A stretch of DNA of 11,391 nt from the IMG/VR virus record IMGVR_UViG_2671180676_000005. One strand, given 5' to 3'. Below the pieces are notes generated by a model that was not told the DNA's origin, made no database searches, and worked only from the letters and a program-made list of their open reading frames with translations. Positions within the stretch are counted from its first letter, which is position 1; each line of letters opens with the position of its first letter. Shown piece by piece: positions 41-9,162 of this stretch. The position numbers and the translations under genes were made by a program. The DNA is from a virus (taxonomy: Duplodnaviria > Heunggongvirae > Uroviricota > Caudoviricetes).

Positions 41-196
41 TTACTCCTCAGGTTCGTAAGCTGTGAAGACAGCGACCTCCGTCTGGCCGGTTCGGATTCG
101 TACCTCGCAGAGGTCTTTCCTCGTTACCAGTGCCGTCACTATGACGGTTAAACAGATGACGATCAGGGCGATTAACATCGCCTTTTGCTGCTTCAT
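41..196 (-). CDS. hokD: Hok/Gef-family type I membrane toxin (51 aa), HokD/RelF
   Basis: Not in the ORF track (<60 aa). Manual minus-strand translation gives MKQQKAMLIALIVICLTVIVTALVTRKDLCEVRIRTGQTEVAVFTAYEPEE, which matches my recall of K-12 HokD (RelF). Lies directly downstream of relE, as in the relBEF operon. Confidence 0.9.
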   Translation of the reverse strand: MKQQKAMLIALIVICLTVIVTALVTRKDLCEVRIRTGQTEVAVFTAYEPEE

Positions 197-267
197 AGCC
201 TGCTTCTCCTGTCAACGCAAAGCAGAAGTGTCACCTTCGGTGCGAAACAGAGATGTCATGCTTTGGT

Positions 268-555
268 TCAGAGAATGCGTTTGACCGCCTCGCTATATAC
301 TTCCGAGCGTTCTCTTTTCCCAACAGAAATCACGAAAACGACAACTTTCTCGTCTATAACCTGGTATACAAGGCGATAGCCTGAAGACCGGAGCTTAATC
401 TTGTAACAATCAGGCATACCACGGAGCTTGTTTGCTTCAATCCGGGGTGACTCAAGTACTTCAACCAGCTTCTTTTTCAACTGTTCACGTACCGTCGAGC
501 CCAGCTTTCGCCATTCCTTTAGTGCCCGCTCGTCAAAATCCAGAAAATACGCCAT
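268..555 (-). CDS. relE: RelE mRNA interferase toxin (95 aa)
   Basis: ORF track 95-aa protein MAYFLDFDERALKEWRKLG... is near-identical to recalled K-12 RelE (one E/D difference). Start ATG shares one base with the relB stop (TGATG). Confidence 0.95.
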   Translation of the reverse strand: MAYFLDFDERALKEWRKLGSTVREQLKKKLVEVLESPRIEANKLRGMPDCYKIKLRSSGYRLVYQVIDEKVVVFVISVGKRERSEVYSEAVKRIL

Positions 556-794
556 CAGAGTTCATCCAGCGTCACACGTACTGGCTTAGGATTACGAAGC
601 CGTTCTTTCACTATCTCCACAAGTTCAGCATCTTCATCACTCAGGAGTGTCTGTTTGAACGGCAAGCGTTCATTGTCAGCGATATACTCGAGCATGAGAC
701 GAAGCGCTTCAGAAGGAGTTACACCCATTTTTTCAAGCGCGGCGTAAGAACGCGCTTTAAGTTCATCGTCAATACGCAGGTTAATGCTACCCAT
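555..794 (-). CDS. relB: RelB antitoxin (79 aa)
   Basis: ORF track 79-aa protein MGSINLRIDDELKARSYAALEKMGVTPSEALRL... matches recalled RelB. AGGTG Shine-Dalgarno (SD) lies upstream. Confidence 0.95.
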   Translation of the reverse strand: MGSINLRIDDELKARSYAALEKMGVTPSEALRLMLEYIADNERLPFKQTLLSDEDAELVEIVKERLRNPKPVRVTLDEL

Positions 795-805
795 GTCTTA
801 CACCT

Positions 806-831
806 CTTGTAATTACAAATGTCATTACAAG
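806..831. promoter_or_regulatory. relO operator: TTGTAAT-type repeats including the 12-bp palindrome TTGTAATTACAA
   Basis: Sequence cttgtaattacaaatgtcattacaag sits 12-37 bp upstream of the relB start codon; it matches the known RelB/RelE operator motif. The promoter itself was not mapped. Confidence 0.7.
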
Positions 832-1124
832 TATCGCACTACAACATGCTTAGGGCAAGTCACGAAGGAAGTCAGAAAGTAGTCGTAAGAACGGTGATCA
901 CTGTCCGCTTTGTGCCAGGAGCAGCCATTGCTAAGTCCATCCTGTATTGTGCAGGTCAGCTCGTTTTTAAAGAGTCCGGCCATCATCTTACTGGTACAGA
1001 CACCATATACTTTGTGACGGTCAGGCTACATATGCACAACTCAACTTATTCATCTATTTTTTGCTTTAGCATGTCAGTGTTGCTTTCTCGTCGGCGGGTG
1101 AGCGGTGACCTGACCTGTCGATAA
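819..1124 (+). CDS. Hypothetical ORF in the position of K-12 ydfV (101 aa); doubtful as a real protein
   Basis: ORF of 101 aa between relB and flxA, where K-12 annotates ydfV. It overlaps the relBE operator region and its sequence is not protein-like; no SD was checked. Confidence 0.25.
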   Translation: MSLQVSHYNMLRASHEGSQKVVVRTVITVRFVPGAAIAKSILYCAGQLVFKESGHHLTGTDTIYFVTVRLHMHNSTYSSIFCFSMSVLLSRRRVSGDLTCR

Positions 1125-1276
1125 AGGAACGTAACACGTTTTATGCAACACCCGCATGCGGCAGAAAATTATTGCCGAACGTTTACCCCTGTCAACAAGC
1201 TTTACTTTCTGAGGCGCGCCAGCCCGCGAGGAAAACAATCTGAACATCAAACAATTAATGACACAAGAAATACGAT

Positions 1277-1303
1277 TAAAGATTTTTTTGTGCATGCCGA
1301 TAG
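1277..1303 (+). promoter_or_regulatory. Sigma-28 (FliA) promoter of flxA
   Basis: TAAAGATT (1277-1284), 11-nt spacer, GCCGATAG (1296-1303), against the class 3 flagellar consensus TAAAGTTT-N11-GCCGATAA. AAAAGGAG SD follows at 1313-1320. Confidence 0.75.
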
Positions 1304-1326
1304 TGCTTTTTTAAAAGGAGAAATCT

Positions 1327-1659
1327 ATGTCTGTCACAATTCAGGGAAATACCTCAACCGTTATTTCAAACAACTCCGCCCCGGAAGGAACATCAGAAAT
1401 AGCCAAAATCACAAGACAAATTCAGGTGCTGACTGAAAAGCTTGGGAAAATCTCATCGGAAGAGGGGATGACGACACAGCAGAAAAAAGAAATGGCTGCA
1501 TTGGTACAGAAGCAAATTGAAAGCCTCTGGGCTCAACTGGAGCAGTTGTTAAGGCAGCAGGCAGAGAAAAAGAATGAAGACGCGACAGTTCAGCCTGATA
1601 AAAAAGAAGAGAAAAAAGACGATACAAATACCGCTGGCACCATTGATATTTACGTCTAA
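1327..1659 (+). CDS. flxA: FlxA, FliA-regulated protein of unknown function (110 aa)
   Basis: ORF track 110-aa protein MSVTIQGNTSTVISNNSAPEG... matches recalled K-12 FlxA. Preceded by the sigma-28 promoter and a strong SD. Confidence 0.9.
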   Translation: MSVTIQGNTSTVISNNSAPEGTSEIAKITRQIQVLTEKLGKISSEEGMTTQQKKEMAALVQKQIESLWAQLEQLLRQQAEKKNEDATVQPDKKEEKKDDTNTAGTIDIYV

Positions 1660-1673
1660 GTGACAGCCGTATT

Positions 1674-1697
1674 GTGGCCCTCATCGGGCCACTTTTC
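1674..1697 (+). terminator. Rho-independent terminator of flxA
   Basis: GTGGCCC-tcatc-GGGCCAC perfect 7-bp GC-rich stem followed by TTTT, 15 nt after the flxA stop. Confidence 0.65.
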
Positions 1698-2095
1698 GCC
1701 ATCAGCCTTTTCTTTAAAGACATATTATCTTTGTATCATTTCTGATAGTTAACATTACAAGATATAAGTAATGGACGCACTCCCAATTAGTCTATTTAAA
1801 TCGCCACGAGTTTAACTGACAACCCATGATCAATTATGAATTGCAACTATTTCTGTAGTCACTTTTGTGGGGACAGTCCACAAAACTGCCAACTTCCGCT
1901 TCTTGCTCTTAGCGGACATTAGCATAGGCTATTTACCATAACGCCTCATTACGCGCACCGCCCAGACTGACTCAGCGCGTTTCTGGCATATCCCCGGTAA
2001 AACAAGTAACAAACCACCCGAAAATGAACACCAGAAACGCGACTTAAGAATCTACCCTATGAATGGATATGCACTCAACCGAATCGATCTTGGTT

Positions 2096-3409
2096 TCAAT
2101 CTTTTTTATCGGGATCAGGCTTCTTTTTAGGTAACTTCGGGGGCTTAACTTGCTGATGACTTTGCGTTCGGCGCGTAAGCCAGGGATGGTCAGCTTTAGG
2201 TTTAACATAGTATTTTGAGCGTAAATCAATACGGGCATTATCCACTCGTTCATGGACACTCTTTTCATCATCCAGTGGTATAGGCTCCGGGCCATCAACA
2301 TACTTTTCCCAGCCCAGCGCTTTCCCGTCATACAGAACGTTAATTTCACCGTCAAAGTTCTCGCATACAGTAACAACCGAATGCCTAAGTCGATATCCCC
2401 GGCCCTCACTGCGTACCTGAAACGCACTGCTTTTGTACTGGAAAGTGAGATTTTTAGACAGAACGCGCTTCGCCTGTAGGCTGAAGATATAACCCAGTTC
2501 CTCTTCAGAATGGTGCACATCAAGATGAGCATTATCAGTAGTACGAGGCGACGTAGCGAACCGGTTGTTATAGGCTTCAATAAAGGTCGGCAACCATGCA
2601 TTTGCTGTTTCAATATCACTGATATTCTGAAGCCGCATTTCTTTGACCAGCCTGTCCTGTAGTGTCTGATTGGCGCGCTCTACCCGCCCTTTTGCCTGCG
2701 GGCTGTTGGCATGGATTGGCTCGATGCCCAGTGTCTTTATCGCACGAGTGAACTGGGTCAGCTCACCTTCCCGCTCTGGGTTATTTACCCTGAATATACT
2801 GTGTCTATCAGAGTAGAGAGCGAGCGGTACGCCATGATCATTAAGGTAACCCCGGAGGGTTTCCATGTAAGCCCGGGTTGTTTCAGCAGGCACAAAACGC
2901 AACGCCATCAACGCACTGGTGGCATCATCAATGAAAACGATCAGTGTACATCTGGGGCCTCGATTTTCAAACCAGTCATGAGGTGAGCCATCAATCTGGA
3001 TCAGTTCACCGTAAGATGGTCGTCGCATGCGGCGTTGATATATACGGGCAATTTTACGACGGCGTTCACGCCATAACCCCTCTTCTATCATCCACTTTCT
3101 GAGAGTTTCAACGGATAAAGATAAACCGTGTATCTCGCGCAATTTTTCGCACGCAAACGTAGGTCCAAAATCAGCGTAACGGCCTTTGAGGAGTGAAATT
3201 ACTGTTGCTCTGAATTCAGTAGAAAAGGAATTATTAGGACGCTTTCCACGTCGGTGGGAAACCAGACCAGAAGGCCCTTCATTTCTATACCGTTGCACCA
3301 GACGTTTAACCTGCCGAATAGAAATGCCAATGCGTGCCGCAGCTTGTTCCTGAATAATCTGAAGTCGGTGGAGTTCCTTATGACTCATCGTAACAGTCTC
3401 TTTGATCAT
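2096..3409 (-). CDS. DDE (integrase-fold) transposase-like protein, 437 aa; N-terminal HTH; family not resolved (IS481-like or ISNCY/IS1202-like)
   Basis: ORF track 437-aa protein with an N-terminal HTH-like segment (ISIRQVKRLVQRY) and an integrase-core signature (KGRVERANQTLQDRL). Element boundaries are not defined. K-12 annotates an integrase fragment (intK/ydfW) at this position. Confidence 0.75.
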   Translation of the reverse strand: MIKETVTMSHKELHRLQIIQEQAAARIGISIRQVKRLVQRYRNEGPSGLVSHRRGKRPNNSFSTEFRATVISLLKGRYADFGPTFACEKLREIHGLSLSVETLRKWMIEEGLWRERRRKIARIYQRRMRRPSYGELIQIDGSPHDWFENRGPRCTLIVFIDDATSALMALRFVPAETTRAYMETLRGYLNDHGVPLALYSDRHSIFRVNNPEREGELTQFTRAIKTLGIEPIHANSPQAKGRVERANQTLQDRLVKEMRLQNISDIETANAWLPTFIEAYNNRFATSPRTTDNAHLDVHHSEEELGYIFSLQAKRVLSKNLTFQYKSSAFQVRSEGRGYRLRHSVVTVCENFDGEINVLYDGKALGWEKYVDGPEPIPLDDEKSVHERVDNARIDLRSKYYVKPKADHPWLTRRTQSHQQVKPPKLPKKKPDPDKKD

Positions 3410-3743
3410 GAAAAATCCCCCAGAGAATTGTCTGGGGACATTTTAGAATGGTTCAAAGGGGACATTACAGCTTGGTGTTAACAATAGCCTGCTTCTCCGT
3501 GCCTTTCGGCACGTAAGAGGCTAACCTACATGTGTCTAGCATGAAATTGGCCTCAGATTAATGTTAAGCGTCTTGCAGGACGCGTAATGTTAACTGGGGC
3601 TTTTCTCTATCTGCCGTTGGTGTCCATGCCCGAGGCAGATAGCCTCAAGCACCCGCAGTCATTCTACTTAACTAAGATTTCCCCGCAAACCGTTTTTGTC
3701 CAGCACAGTAAATATCCAACTAAACCAATGGAGTTCGCTGTAT

Positions 3744-3923
3744 TTACCGCCAGTATTCAATGCACATGACCGCCATGAACACCCCTAAAAAAAGGGCATT
3801 TATATATCCAAATATTAATATCAAAACATCAACTTTTTCCATATACCTTGCTGTGAAGATGATGGGCATACATGATGCGAACAACCAGAACGCAACAAAC
3901 AAAAACTGCAATGCGTTTTTCAT
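3744..3923 (-). CDS. Small hydrophobic two-TM peptide (59 aa), function unknown
   Basis: The ORF track 72-aa frame contains an internal ATG with a consensus AGGAGG SD 6 nt upstream (taggaggaataATG). Product MKNALQFLFVAFWLFASCMPIIFTARYMEKVDVLILIFGYINALFLGVFMAVMCIEYWR has two hydrophobic stretches. Confidence 0.5.
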   Translation of the reverse strand: MKNALQFLFVAFWLFASCMPIIFTARYMEKVDVLILIFGYINALFLGVFMAVMCIEYWR

Positions 3924-4107
3924 TATTCCTCCTACAATCAATGTGCAATTACATTTAAACACACCTCAATTTGGCCGGACATATAAATATCTAAACCAGA
4001 AAAAATCACTTACATAGCGTTACAAACTCTTTAGTCTAAAGGTTCATCGTAAAACATTCCCCATACTTATCAGTCCGTTCCGCGCCAGGTAGCTCATTGC
4101 CTTATCT

Positions 4108-4137
4108 GGCAACCTGTAATCAGGTTTCCGCTTTTTC
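4108..4137 (+). terminator. Candidate weak intrinsic terminator, or regulatory hairpin
   Basis: AACCTG-taat-CAGGTT stem-loop (4111-4126) followed by tccgcTTTTT. No obvious plus-strand gene upstream. Confidence 0.25.
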
Positions 4138-4947
4138 AGTTGGCTGGTCGTTTAACCGACATAGTTAATCCATTAATCTAGTTGCCGGATGTTGGTGGAT
4201 TTTCGCGTTTTAGTTGTTCATAAAAGTGCACAGCTTTAACCAGTTCTTCTGATGTAACTGGGACTGGTGAGGCAGTGAATAAGGCCTGAATTTGATAGTT
4301 CGGCCTGTCGTTACAATCCTCTTTTTTCGGTACATATTTCCAGTCACCAGACCACTACTTCCCCTGAAAGTCCGTAACGCCTTTTTTCACGTAGCGATAT
4401 CGCCATGCCACTGGTTTTGCTTGCCCCGCCGTTTCATGCCCTTCCTGATAATTAATCTCGCTCATTCATCGCCCCACTCATCACAATATGCTTCGACCGG
4501 AGTTTTTCCCGCTTCATAGTCATCACGCTAGGATTCGACATCAGCAGCACTTCCACCGCGTAACTCACCATAGTCCATTAATAGTTCATCCCGCTCTTCA
4601 AAACTGATGTTATATTTAGCTGAACAAAAATCAGCCACTTTGTTCTTCCTCATCGTCTTTTATTTCGTGGTATGAGTAATTGCAGTAGTTAAAGAAAATT
4701 TCTTATGCTCCGTCATGAATTTCCTCAGGTGTTGCGTCATCGTCCACTTCGAATACATCCTCAAAATCTCCACCAGCTATTCCCGTTTCAATAATAATTT
4801 TGAACTTTCGCATTTCACTACCGCCCTTTCGGGCGGCCTCCTGATGTTCTGAGGGTGCAGAAATCCATCCGGTTAAGTATTAAATTTTATTTACAGAACT
4901 GAATTTAATTATTCAGATATACGTATCTGTAGCCTTACGAATCTACT

Positions 4948-9104: not shown

Positions 9105-9162
9105 TTTCTGGTGACGTTTGGCGGTATCAGTTTTACTCCGTGACTGCTCTGCCGCCCTTTTT
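9105..9162 (+). ncRNA. dicF: DicF small regulatory RNA (antisense inhibitor of ftsZ translation)
   Basis: tttctggtgacgtttggcggtatcagttttactccgtgactgctctgccgccctttt matches recalled DicF; ends in GGCGG...CCGCC plus a U-tract. Lies between ydfC and dicB. The 5' end is approximate. Confidence 0.8.

What the first reader, a model, noticed from the sequence alone, without database searches (positions are those of the whole stretch)
3744..3923. Orphan 59-aa two-TM membrane peptide with a consensus ribosome-binding site
The gene has an AGGAGG SD at ideal spacing and encodes a very hydrophobic 59-aa peptide with two predicted membrane spans. It is flanked by about 330 bp (3410-3743) and about 370 bp (3962-4330) with no convincing ORF. 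Small toxic membrane peptides in prophages (Hok-like type I toxins, holin- or Kil-like proteins) have this shape. I could not recall it as any named Qin gene.
Basis: partly seen in the sequence, partly recalled or inferred. Interest (0 to 1): 0.55.

Follow-up and report, generated by a model that had tools for sequence, protein, structure and literature searches.

The report
Unannotated small prophage membrane-protein gene
The 59-codon reading frame is a real, conserved gene for a tiny membrane protein of unknown function; it lies just upstream of a hok/sok toxin-antitoxin locus in Qin-type E. coli prophages, and nothing shows that it is itself a toxin.

Summary
The ORF is at 3923..3744 on the minus strand. 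AGGAGG lies 4 nt before its ATG, and it has two hydrophobic segments (residues 7-25 and 33-52).

It is a real gene. A 41%-identical paralog of exactly 59 codons sits in a prophage remnant at the ttcA/Rac site. Only this frame is open in both copies. dN/dS is about 0.19, and neutral drift would keep the ORF intact in only 0.3% of simulations.

The family occurs only in Escherichia and Shigella. It matches nothing in Pfam, PHROGs, NCBIfam, PADLOC or the PDB. It was unannotated in every RefSeq record sampled, although the Qin-type copy is in 1570 of 5426 complete E. coli genomes and the second type in 1044.

The flanks are not empty. Downstream is the 5' leader of a hok/sok locus (Rfam, 104 bits). 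A 3.27-kb IS1202-family element carrying flxA, ydfV and relBE separates that leader from its toxin gene, hokD. Upstream is a frameshifted gene.

Both paralogs sit directly upstream of a hokD-type hok. I found no antisense RNA, holin context or Hok similarity, so the toxin reading is unsupported.

Best reading: an accessory inner-membrane hairpin protein, or possibly a lipoprotein, of the phage early-right region. Interest is moderate to low.

The parts
3744..3923 (-). 59-codon CDS plus stop: MKNALQFLFVAFWLFASCMPIIFTARYMEKVDVLILIFGYINALFLGVFMAVMCIEYWR
   Evidence: ORF list. The 59-aa paralog is 41% identical with no gaps; only this frame is open in both copies; dN/dS about 0.19. A neutral-drift simulation kept the ORF intact in 0.34% of runs and gave both an intact ORF and the observed identity in 0 of 20000. 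The ORF is intact in 113 of 115 loci chosen by an upstream DNA anchor.
3928..3933 (-). Shine-Dalgarno AGGAGG, 4 nt before the ATG; polymorphic (AGGGGG in about half of the alleles)
4029..4041 (-). 13-bp perfect palindrome CTTTAGACTAAAG about 105 nt upstream of the ATG, inside a block that is invariant among Qin-type alleles
   Evidence: Paralog B has CTTCAGTCTGAAG at the aligned position, a compensatory change on both arms. No variable column lies between 3998 and 4040. Function unknown.
3655..3743 (-). Spacer between the ORF stop and the hok mRNA 5' end. It contains a promoter-like TTGCGG (3688..3683), 16 nt, TAGAAT (3666..3661), placed 6 nt before the leader start.
   Evidence: Read directly from the sequence. 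The placement relative to the first position of the Rfam model is inference. The consensus scan did not call it.
3484..3654 (-). [quoted passage not shown] It is orphaned from its toxin gene.
   Evidence: Rfam RF01794, 104.1 bits, E 2.6e-24. It is contiguous with an intact hok in phage vB_EcoS-640R1, CFT073 and L039.
210..3483 (-). 3.27-kb insertion splitting the hok locus: an IS1202-family (ISEsa1-like) transposase ORF (3409..2096) plus flxA, ydfV and relBE. It is bounded by imperfect inverted repeats and a 15-bp direct repeat, GGAGAAGCAGGCTAT (3498..3484 and 209..195).
   Evidence: Empty site in L039. Direct repeat and 19/26 inverted repeats; the best match to the left end anywhere in 150-2200 is at 210. 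RefSeq names the transposase 'IS1202-like element ISEsa1 family' in some genomes.
41..196 (-). hokD coding sequence, the toxin gene that belongs to the leader at 3484-3654
   Evidence: 100% amino-acid identity to the hok that follows the leader in vB_EcoS-640R1; the DNA is 98.9% identical from 10 nt upstream of the ATG.
4210..4465 (-). Frameshifted remains of the upstream 85-aa early-region gene (pieces of 36 aa and 45 aa)

Best explanation
This is a genuine protein-coding gene for a 59-residue inner-membrane protein. It belongs to an uncharacterised family found only in Escherichia and Shigella prophages.

The gene lies in the rightward early (nin-like) region of DicA/DicC-immunity, Qin-type lambdoid phages. 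It sits between the replication/methyltransferase genes and Q, in the same orientation as that operon.

Shown: the gene is under long-term protein-level constraint; it has its own Shine-Dalgarno sequence; and it forms a conserved cassette with a hokD-type hok/sok locus immediately downstream.

Inferred: it is transcribed by read-through from the early-right promoter rather than from a promoter of its own. It inserts as an N-in/C-in helical hairpin with a short periplasmic loop of about 8 residues. It acts in the membrane through the residues invariant between the paralogs (W13, S17, C18, P20 in helix 1; G39, N42 in helix 2; E56, W58, R59 at the end), by self-association or by binding a host or phage membrane partner.

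My best guess for its role is an accessory phage-host or phage-phage conflict factor, of the superinfection-exclusion or membrane-modulating kind. I do not think it is a dedicated toxin-antitoxin toxin or a lysis protein.
For: Coding constraint:
- An exhaustive phmmer search found one diverged subfamily (P0082/P0087: 59 aa, 41% identical, aligned 1-59 without gaps).
- Nucleotide identity by codon position is 58%, 71% and 47%. pN is 0.34 and pS 0.72, so dN/dS is about 0.19.
- All five other frames contain stops in one or both copies.
- A neutral simulation with the same 73 substitutions kept an intact ORF in 0.34% of runs, reached the observed identity in 2%, and achieved both in 0 of 20000.
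- Paralog B has an in-frame stop 6 codons upstream of its ATG. This fixes the 59-aa start over the 72-aa GTG start used in many GenBank entries.

Maintenance:
- 113 of 115 IMG/VR loci chosen by an upstream anchor keep 59 codons.
- Intact forms occur on more than 1000 contigs each, disrupted forms on a few.

Membrane hairpin:
- Hydropathy and the AlphaFold2 model.
- Net charge is +1 or +2 at the N-terminus, and 0 (Qin-type copy) or -2 (paralog) in the loop.

Context:
- The gene has the same orientation as cro, O and Q in PhiR42_1, vB_EcoS-640R1 and CFT073.
- The hok leader follows in 107 of 115 loci.
- Paralog B is followed by a hok 3' remnant about 80% identical to hokD.
Against: - There are no expression data of any kind. 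The consensus scan found no sigma-70 promoter upstream of either paralog, and paralog B sits in a remnant with no obvious operon promoter.
- Within the Qin-type lineage all of about 10 substitutions are nonsynonymous and none is synonymous. Recent purifying selection is therefore not demonstrated.
- Some alleles are frameshifted or interrupted by an IS.
- The functional role is pure inference. There is no informative homolog or structural match: best BFVD E-value 0.9, no PDB or PADLOC match, and only a weak match to phrog_6298, of unknown function, E 0.02-0.2.
- Both paralogs also fit a lipoprotein signal-peptide pattern, so the hairpin topology is not certain.
Confidence: 0.55

Rival explanations
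1. It is a small lipoprotein precursor. Residues 1-17 would be a signal peptide, signal peptidase II would cleave before Cys18, and the 42-residue mature peptide would be lipid-anchored at Cys18 and also held by the second hydrophobic segment. Its function might resemble the small phage exclusion or lysis-type lipoproteins.
For: Both paralogs satisfy the PROSITE-type lipobox rule as I recall it: {DERK}(6)-[LIVMFWSTAG](2)-[LIVMFYSTAGCQ]-[AGS]-C, with the Cys at position 15-35 and a K or R in the first 7 residues. The matches are LFVAFWLFASC and LCISIWIVISC, both with Cys18. Shuffled sequences match in only 0.7-1.8% of cases. S17 and C18 are invariant between paralogs that are only 41% identical.
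Against: - The pattern is matched in about 9% of shuffles of the first hydrophobic segment alone, and it is known to give false positives in transmembrane helices.
- Phe at -3 in the Qin type is atypical.
- The stretch after Cys18 (MPIIFT) stays hydrophobic and is modelled as part of one continuous helix 3-24.
- A mature lipoprotein with a 23-residue transmembrane segment and only about 14 periplasmic residues is unusual.
Confidence: 0.22
2. One reading: a toxic membrane peptide. That means a type I toxin held in check by an antisense RNA, or a holin- or Kil-like killer whose expression arrests growth or lyses the cell.
For: - It is a small, very hydrophobic, prophage-borne peptide with a strong ribosome-binding site.
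- It is adjacent to another membrane toxin locus.
- A terminator-like hairpin on the opposite strand at 4111-4135 could end an antisense transcript.
- The Sok promoter fires towards the ORF on the antisense strand (inference).
- Many hydrophobic small proteins are toxic when overproduced (general knowledge).
Against: - No match to Hok/Gef or any toxin, holin or defence model.
- It has two helices rather than the single helix plus periplasmic Cys-containing tail of Hok.
- The scan called no promoter-like site on either strand in 3300-4600. The plus-strand terminator region does not align with the second-type copy (paralog B).
- Paralog B survives intact in more than 1000 genomes where the adjacent hok leader and sok have been deleted and no regulator is evident.
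- The gene is about 4.5 kb upstream of the end of the Q-homologue ydfT, while the lysis cassette lies downstream of Q (K-12 Qin order), and its C-terminus is only EYWR.
- Kil and DicB-type inhibitors are soluble proteins of the leftward operon, and dicB lies elsewhere in this window's prophage.
Confidence: 0.12
3. It is not a gene. The ORF would be a by-product of T-rich DNA that is conserved for another reason, such as a regulatory or recombination element of the hok/sok module.
For: - The segment is 37% G+C and T-rich on the coding strand, which favours hydrophobic codons.
- RefSeq/PGAP does not call it.
- Within the Qin-type lineage the DNA is less diverged than both flanks, yet every change alters an amino acid.
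Against: - Between paralogs A (the Qin-type copy in this window) and B (the second type, at the ttcA/Rac site) the DNA is only 59% identical, yet length, frame, start and stop are all preserved.
- The codon-position pattern is that of a coding sequence, and neutral drift would almost never keep the frame open.
- The antisense 85-codon frame that some phage records annotate is broken in paralog B.
Confidence: 0.04

Closest known systems
Hok/Gef type I toxins (hok/sok, e.g. plasmid R1 parB, E. coli hokA-E)
   Same: A small hydrophobic prophage-borne peptide of about 50-60 residues with its own ribosome-binding site. It is physically linked to a hokD-type hok/sok locus in both paralogous copies.
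   Different: No sequence relation (no Pfam hit). It has two hydrophobic helices instead of one helix plus a periplasmic tail. There is no overlapping mok-like frame, no Sok-like antisense RNA and no leader structure. The neighbouring element is the hok locus, not this ORF.
Class II holins and pinholins (e.g. phage 21 S21-68)
   Same: Two transmembrane segments, about 60-70 residues, predicted N-in/C-in topology, lambdoid phage origin.
   Different: It is not in the lysis cassette: it lies upstream of Q, whereas essQ/rrrQ/rzpQ lie downstream of Q. It has no charged C-terminal domain (it ends EYWR), no dual-start motif and no PHROG or Pfam holin match.
Small phage membrane proteins and lipoproteins of superinfection exclusion (T4 Imm; phi80/N15 Cor and T5 Llp lipoproteins). 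This comparison rests on my own knowledge.
   Same: Tiny membrane-anchored accessory proteins carried by phages, non-essential, narrowly distributed and fast-evolving. A possible lipobox at Cys18 would parallel Cor and Llp.
   Different: No detectable sequence or fold relation. No exclusion phenotype is known. The location in the early-right region differs from that of Cor, which is next to tail genes.
Uncharacterised predicted proteins already in GenBank and UniProt (e.g. A0A0J2DWW3_ECOLX 'Membrane protein', A0A1Q9L2W4_ECOLX; 'putative membrane protein [E. coli ATCC 25922]')
   Same: These are the identical or near-identical sequence.
   Different: They are names only, with no function, family or experiment attached. 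Many entries use the 72-aa GTG start, which the paralog argues against.

Membership tests
Hok/Gef type I toxin | Sequence match to the Hok/Gef family model | tested here: not met
   No Pfam-A or NCBIfam hit even at E up to 10.
Hok/Gef type I toxin | One N-terminal transmembrane helix followed by a periplasmic tail with conserved Cys | tested here: not met
   There are two hydrophobic segments, 7-25 and 33-52, and a 4-residue tail.
Hok/Gef type I toxin | Structured mRNA leader with a mok frame and a Sok antisense RNA | tested here: not met
   The Rfam hit covers 3484-3654, downstream of the ORF, and belongs to hokD. Nothing was found over or upstream of the ORF at E up to 1.
Type I toxin-antitoxin system (generic) | A cis- or divergently encoded antisense RNA with its own promoter and terminator, conserved with the toxin | tested here: inconclusive
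   The scan called no promoter-like site on either strand in 3300-4600. There is a plus-strand terminator-like hairpin at 4111-4135, but that region does not align with paralog B. Consensus scans cannot exclude a weak promoter, and no RNA data are available.
Type I toxin-antitoxin system (generic) | Toxicity of the peptide | not testable with these tools
   Needs inducible expression.
Class II holin / pinholin | Two transmembrane domains | tested here: met
Class II holin / pinholin | Located in the lysis cassette next to endolysin and spanin genes, downstream of Q | tested here: not met
   The gene lies about 4.5 kb upstream of the end of the Q-homologue ydfT. In K-12 Qin the lysis genes essQ, rrrQ and rzpQ lie downstream of Q.
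Class II holin / pinholin | Hydrophilic, highly charged C-terminal domain, and a holin family match | tested here: not met
   The C-terminus is IEYWR with net charge 0. No PHROG or Pfam holin hit.
Kil / DicB-type division inhibitors | Soluble small protein of the leftward early operon that acts on FtsZ or MinC | tested here: not met
   The peptide is strongly hydrophobic and lies in the rightward operon. dicB and ydfD are annotated elsewhere in the same prophage.
Bacterial lipoprotein | N-terminal signal peptide with a lipobox and an invariant Cys | tested here: met
   Both paralogs match the PROSITE-type rule at Cys18; shuffles match in 0.7-1.8% of cases. This is a pattern match only.
Bacterial lipoprotein | Lipid modification and cleavage by signal peptidase II | not testable with these tools
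   Needs globomycin or labelling experiments.
New family: 59-aa prophage membrane protein (Qin type plus ttcA-remnant type) | 59 residues; invariant M1, L5, L8, W13, S17, C18, P20, I21, I22, T24, L36, F38, G39, N42, A43, L44, I55, E56, W58, R59; located directly upstream of a hokD-type hok | tested here: met
   Alignment A3. Context.

The most novel reading that the evidence does not exclude
The 59-aa protein is a functional partner of the adjacent hok/sok locus. The two would form a conserved two-gene membrane cassette. The small protein might modulate Hok (immunity or potentiation), or act as a second effector whose expression is coupled to hok/sok by read-through transcription or by antisense read-through from the Sok promoter. 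The linkage has survived 60% amino-acid divergence between two prophage lineages.
Probability: 0.1. Interest if true: 0.65.

Novelty: new member of a known kind. Interest (0 to 1): 0.36.

Why it matters
It adds a bona fide but unannotated small membrane-protein gene. The Qin-type copy is in 1570 of 5426 complete E. coli genomes and the second type in 1044. RefSeq had no annotation in any record sampled, and some phage records annotate the wrong strand.

Small prophage membrane proteins often turn out to be exclusion, defence or regulatory factors. The conserved position next to hok/sok gives a concrete hypothesis to test.

The context also clarifies a textbook locus. The 'relBEF operon' of K-12 appears to have arisen when an IS1202-family element carrying relBE landed between the hok/sok leader and the hokD coding sequence.

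Tried and rejected
- Family searches with the peptide and with the two-subfamily alignment (Pfam, PHROGs, NCBIfam, PADLOC, PDB sequence search) gave nothing usable. The only hit was phrog_6298, of unknown function, E 0.02-0.2.
- A Foldseek search of the AlphaFold2 model against viral structures gave only generic helical hairpins, best E 0.9.
- The word-seeded profile search and the exhaustive phmmer search found no third subfamily and nothing outside Escherichia and Shigella.
- A search for an antisense RNA found no promoter-like site on either strand. The fold of the plus strand 3924-4140 is not unusual (z -1.3), and Rfam at E up to 1 found only the hok leader.
- The antisense 85-codon ORF (3760-4017, plus strand), annotated as 'hornerin' or 'hypothetical protein' in phage records, is rejected because its frame is broken in paralog B.
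- The 72-aa GTG start is rejected because paralog B has a stop 6 codons upstream of its ATG.
- A literature search for the peptide string found nothing. A CFT073 Ribo-seq preprint may cover the locus, but its tables are not held. A Hok survey preprint turned up nothing on an upstream ORF in a term search of its text.
- The within-lineage dN/dS test was uninformative: about 10 nonsynonymous and 0 synonymous changes.

Full report
**Where the window comes from.** The 1-kb region around the finding is 100% identical to many E. coli chromosomes. In ATCC 8739 it lies in a Qin-type lambdoid prophage. Reading the window's minus strand, the order is: dicC (cro-like), a ydaT-family gene, a replication gene, DUF977, a methyltransferase, two decayed small genes, then the region of interest, an 'ISNCY family transposase', ydfW, flxA/ydfV (opposite strand), relB, relE, hokD, rem, ydfU and ydfT (Q). 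K-12 MG1655 has a deletion between ydfX and ydfW and lacks the ORF. That is why no Qin gene name fits.

**Checking the observation.**
- The ORF is present at 3923..3744 on the minus strand: 59 codons with an ATG start.
- AGGAGG lies at 3933..3928, 4 nt before the ATG. There are only three AGGAGG in both strands of the 11.4-kb window.
- The spacing is at the short end of the functional range rather than ideal.
- In an unbiased sample of loci, 59 of 115 carry AGGGGG instead.
- The peptide has GRAVY 1.27 and two segments that pass simple transmembrane scales, residues 7-25 and 33-52.
- A single-sequence AlphaFold2 model gives two helices, 3-24 and 31-58, with pLDDT 82.6.
- Net charge is +1 at the N-terminus and 0 in the loop; in the paralog the values are +2 and -2. 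This favours an N-in/C-in hairpin (inference from the positive-inside rule).

**Is it a gene?** Comparisons among close E. coli alleles could not answer this. The ORF differs by at most 2% among them, and every one of about 10 distinct substitutions is nonsynonymous.

The decisive result came from the exhaustive phmmer search of 1.84 billion representatives. Apart from near-identical sequences, it found P0082 and its relatives: 59 aa, 41% identical, aligned 1-59 without gaps.
- This second type (P0087 and relatives) is on more than 1000 contigs.
- It lies between ttcA and uspF, in a short remnant with an integrase fragment. This is the Rac attachment region of strains that lack Rac (my identification from the neighbouring genes zntB, dbpA, ttcA, uspF, ompN).
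- The 441-bp locus query, which spans this copy and its flanks, is covered at 80% or more in 1044 of 5426 complete E. coli genomes, and every sampled row was unannotated.

The two ORFs align without gaps over 180 nt and differ at 73 positions.
- Identity by codon position is 58%, 71% and 47%. pN is 0.34 and pS 0.72, so dN/dS is about 0.19.
- Every other frame, on both strands, has stops in one or both copies.
- I placed the same number and spectrum of substitutions at random on the window's ORF. The frame stayed intact in 0.34% of 20000 trials and amino-acid identity reached the observed value in 2%. Both happened together in none.
- Paralog B has an in-frame TAA six codons upstream of its ATG. 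The 59-aa start is therefore right, and the 72-aa GTG start used in many GenBank entries is not.
- Among 115 usable IMG/VR loci chosen by a 24-nt anchor upstream of the ORF, and so not selected for ORF integrity, 113 keep 59 codons.

I conclude that the ORF encodes a protein, with about 0.9 confidence.

**What family?** None that is described.
- Pfam, PHROGs, NCBIfam and PADLOC give no significant hit. A PDB profile search gives none. The only trace is phrog_6298, of unknown function, at E 0.02-0.2.
- Foldseek against viral models returns only generic hairpins.
- A profile of both subfamilies finds no third subfamily.
- A scan of one genome per species finds the ORF only in Escherichia and Shigella.
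- GenBank and UniProt carry it as 'hypothetical protein' or 'membrane protein'. Every sampled RefSeq record leaves it unannotated.
- Two of the three phage records that contain it annotate the opposite-strand 85-codon ORF as 'hornerin', and one as a hypothetical protein. That frame is broken in paralog B.

**The flanks.**

*Downstream.* Rfam family RF01794 ('sok') matches 3654..3483 on the minus strand at 104 bits, covering the full model. The printed alignment shows that the model runs from the hok mRNA 5' end (GGGUGCUUGAGG...) to the hok AUG. It is therefore the hok leader on the hok-sense strand.

In phage vB_EcoS-640R1, in CFT073 and in IMG/VR locus L039, this leader runs straight into a hok gene. 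In vB_EcoS-640R1 the hok product is 100% identical to the window's HokD at 196..44.

In the window the two halves are separated by 3274 bp (210..3483). L039, which is 99.9% identical on the left and 100% on the right, is the empty site. The insert has these features:
- It is flanked by an exact 15-bp direct repeat, GGAGAAGCAGGCTAT.
- It ends in 26-nt inverted repeats matching at 19 of 26 positions. The best match to the left end anywhere in 150-2200 is exactly at position 210.
- It carries a 437-codon transposase ORF with HTH and rve_3 domains, named 'IS1202-like element ISEsa1 family' in some RefSeq genomes.
- It also carries flxA, ydfV and relBE.

*Upstream.* An 85-aa gene that is intact in vB_EcoS-640R1 is frameshifted here into pieces of 36 and 45 aa. 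PGAP marks a pseudogene there.

**Linkage to hok.** The hok leader follows the ORF in 107 of 115 anchor-selected loci; 83 have the intact hok ATG and 24 have the IS junction. In paralog B the ORF is followed after about 55 nt by a hok 3' remnant about 80% identical to hokD. The promoter, leader, sok and the 5' half of hok have been deleted there.

DNA homology between the two loci also extends about 150 nt upstream. It includes a 13-bp perfect palindrome with a compensatory change: CTTTAGACTAAAG in the window and CTTCAGTCTGAAG in paralog B. The ancestral module was therefore upstream element, 59-aa gene, then hok/sok. Whether the linkage is functional or merely inherited is not known.

**Mechanism.** What is shown is a constrained coding sequence, its own ribosome-binding site, membrane-type hydrophobicity, and co-orientation with the early-right operon of inducible phages.

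What is inferred is expression by read-through of that operon. The consensus scan found no promoter upstream of either paralog, although the scan also misses the hok promoter-like TTGCGG-16-TAGAAT.

Also inferred is insertion as an N-in/C-in hairpin, with action through the invariant intramembrane residues (W13, S17, C18, P20, G39, N42) and the C-terminal E56-x-W58-R59.

A competing topology is a lipoprotein. Both paralogs fit the PROSITE-type lipobox rule at Cys18. Whole-sequence shuffles match in 0.7-1.8% of cases, but shuffles within the first segment match in about 9%.

**The toxin reading.** I rate it low (about 0.12) for four reasons:
- There is no relation to Hok or to any toxin or holin model.
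- There is no conserved antisense element. The plus-strand terminator-like hairpin at 4111-4135 does not align with paralog B.
- The gene is in the wrong place, and has the wrong C-terminus, for a holin.
- Paralog B persists intact where sok is gone.

Toxicity on overproduction remains untested.

**Novelty and interest.** This is an uncharacterised, lineage-restricted small membrane-protein family. It is a new member of a well-known kind, the small accessory membrane proteins of prophages. The sequence already sits in databases as a hypothetical protein.

The useful outcomes are:
- proof that it is a real gene;
- the correct start and strand;
- its second subfamily;
- its conserved position next to hok/sok;
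- the correction of the 'orphan with empty flanks' picture.

Interest is 0.36. The most novel reading still open is a functional partnership with hok/sok (probability about 0.1).

Noticed in passing
window 210-3483 (direct repeats at 3484-3498 and 195-209): relB, relE, ydfV, flxA and an IS1202-family (ISEsa1-like) transposase form one 3274-bp unit inserted between the hok/sok leader and the hokD ATG. It has a 15-bp direct repeat (GGAGAAGCAGGCTAT), 19/26 terminal inverted repeats, and a sequenced empty site (L039). This suggests that the K-12 'relBEF operon' arose when a relBE-carrying transposable unit landed in hok/sok. ISEsa1 itself is listed as 1609 bp with no detectable target-site duplication (PMC10132070), so this would be a longer, cargo-carrying derivative. 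The full unit is in 760 of 5426 E. coli genomes, and 134 of the 1418 matching places are on plasmids; the two plasmid rows sampled match only the relBE/ydfV part.
   Followed up: partly
window 2096-2245 and 2096-3409 (minus strand): 'Protein YdfW' (49 aa), named in K-12 and by PGAP, is the last 49 codons of the 437-codon transposase ORF and uses the same stop at 2096. PGAP therefore annotates ydfW plus a transposase 'missing C-terminus' where there is one intact ORF. K-12 keeps only the tail because of its ydfX-ydfW deletion.
   Followed up: partly
window 3484-3654 (minus strand): This is an orphaned hok/sok leader with a mok-like ATG at 3542. Its frame runs into the IS end and stops there. 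The Rfam family named 'sok' matches on the hok-sense strand and ends at the hok AUG, so the model describes the hok leader rather than the antisense RNA strand.
   Followed up: partly
window 3760-4017 (plus strand); L002 5907-6158, L003 5907-6158: Phage GenBank records annotate the antisense 85-codon ORF, as 'hornerin' or 'hypothetical protein', instead of the 59-aa gene. That frame has stops in the paralogous locus and is probably a shadow ORF.
   Followed up: yes
L088 6001-6180 and 6235-6325 (E. coli CP042246.1; between ttcA and uspF): The second subfamily of the 59-aa protein lies in a degraded prophage remnant at the Rac attachment region. It is followed by a hok 3' remnant (about 80% identical to hokD) and fragments of an ABC-3 permease gene. 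It is in 1044 of 5426 complete genomes and was unannotated in every row sampled.
   Followed up: partly
window 4029-4041: The perfect 13-bp palindrome CTTTAGACTAAAG upstream of the ORF is kept as CTTCAGTCTGAAG in the paralogous locus, a compensatory change. It lies in a block (3998-4040) that is invariant among 28 haplotypes. It could be an operator or a hairpin in the 5' UTR.
   Followed up: no
window 4111-4135 (plus strand): A terminator-like hairpin (AACCTGTAATCAGGTT followed by TCCGCTTTTT) sits on the strand opposite to all neighbouring genes. It is polymorphic among alleles and does not align with the paralogous locus. It is unclear what it would terminate.
   Followed up: partly
window 3744-3923 across IMG/VR loci L007-L174: All of about 10 distinct substitutions within the Qin-type lineage change an amino acid (A16V, M28I, I31V, M37I, H40Y, A43V, L44I, V48G, V52G, M53T) and none is synonymous. 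Meanwhile the ORF DNA is several-fold less diverged than both flanks; the hok leader differs by up to about 10%.
   Followed up: partly
window 9106-9157 (plus strand): DicF small RNA (Rfam RF00039, 76.7 bits), as expected for a Qin-type prophage.
   Followed up: no
window 4210-4465 and about 4630-4815 (minus strand): Two small early-region genes are decayed here: an 85-aa gene split by a frameshift, and a DUF7167 gene with an internal stop. Both are intact in phage vB_EcoS-640R1.
   Followed up: no
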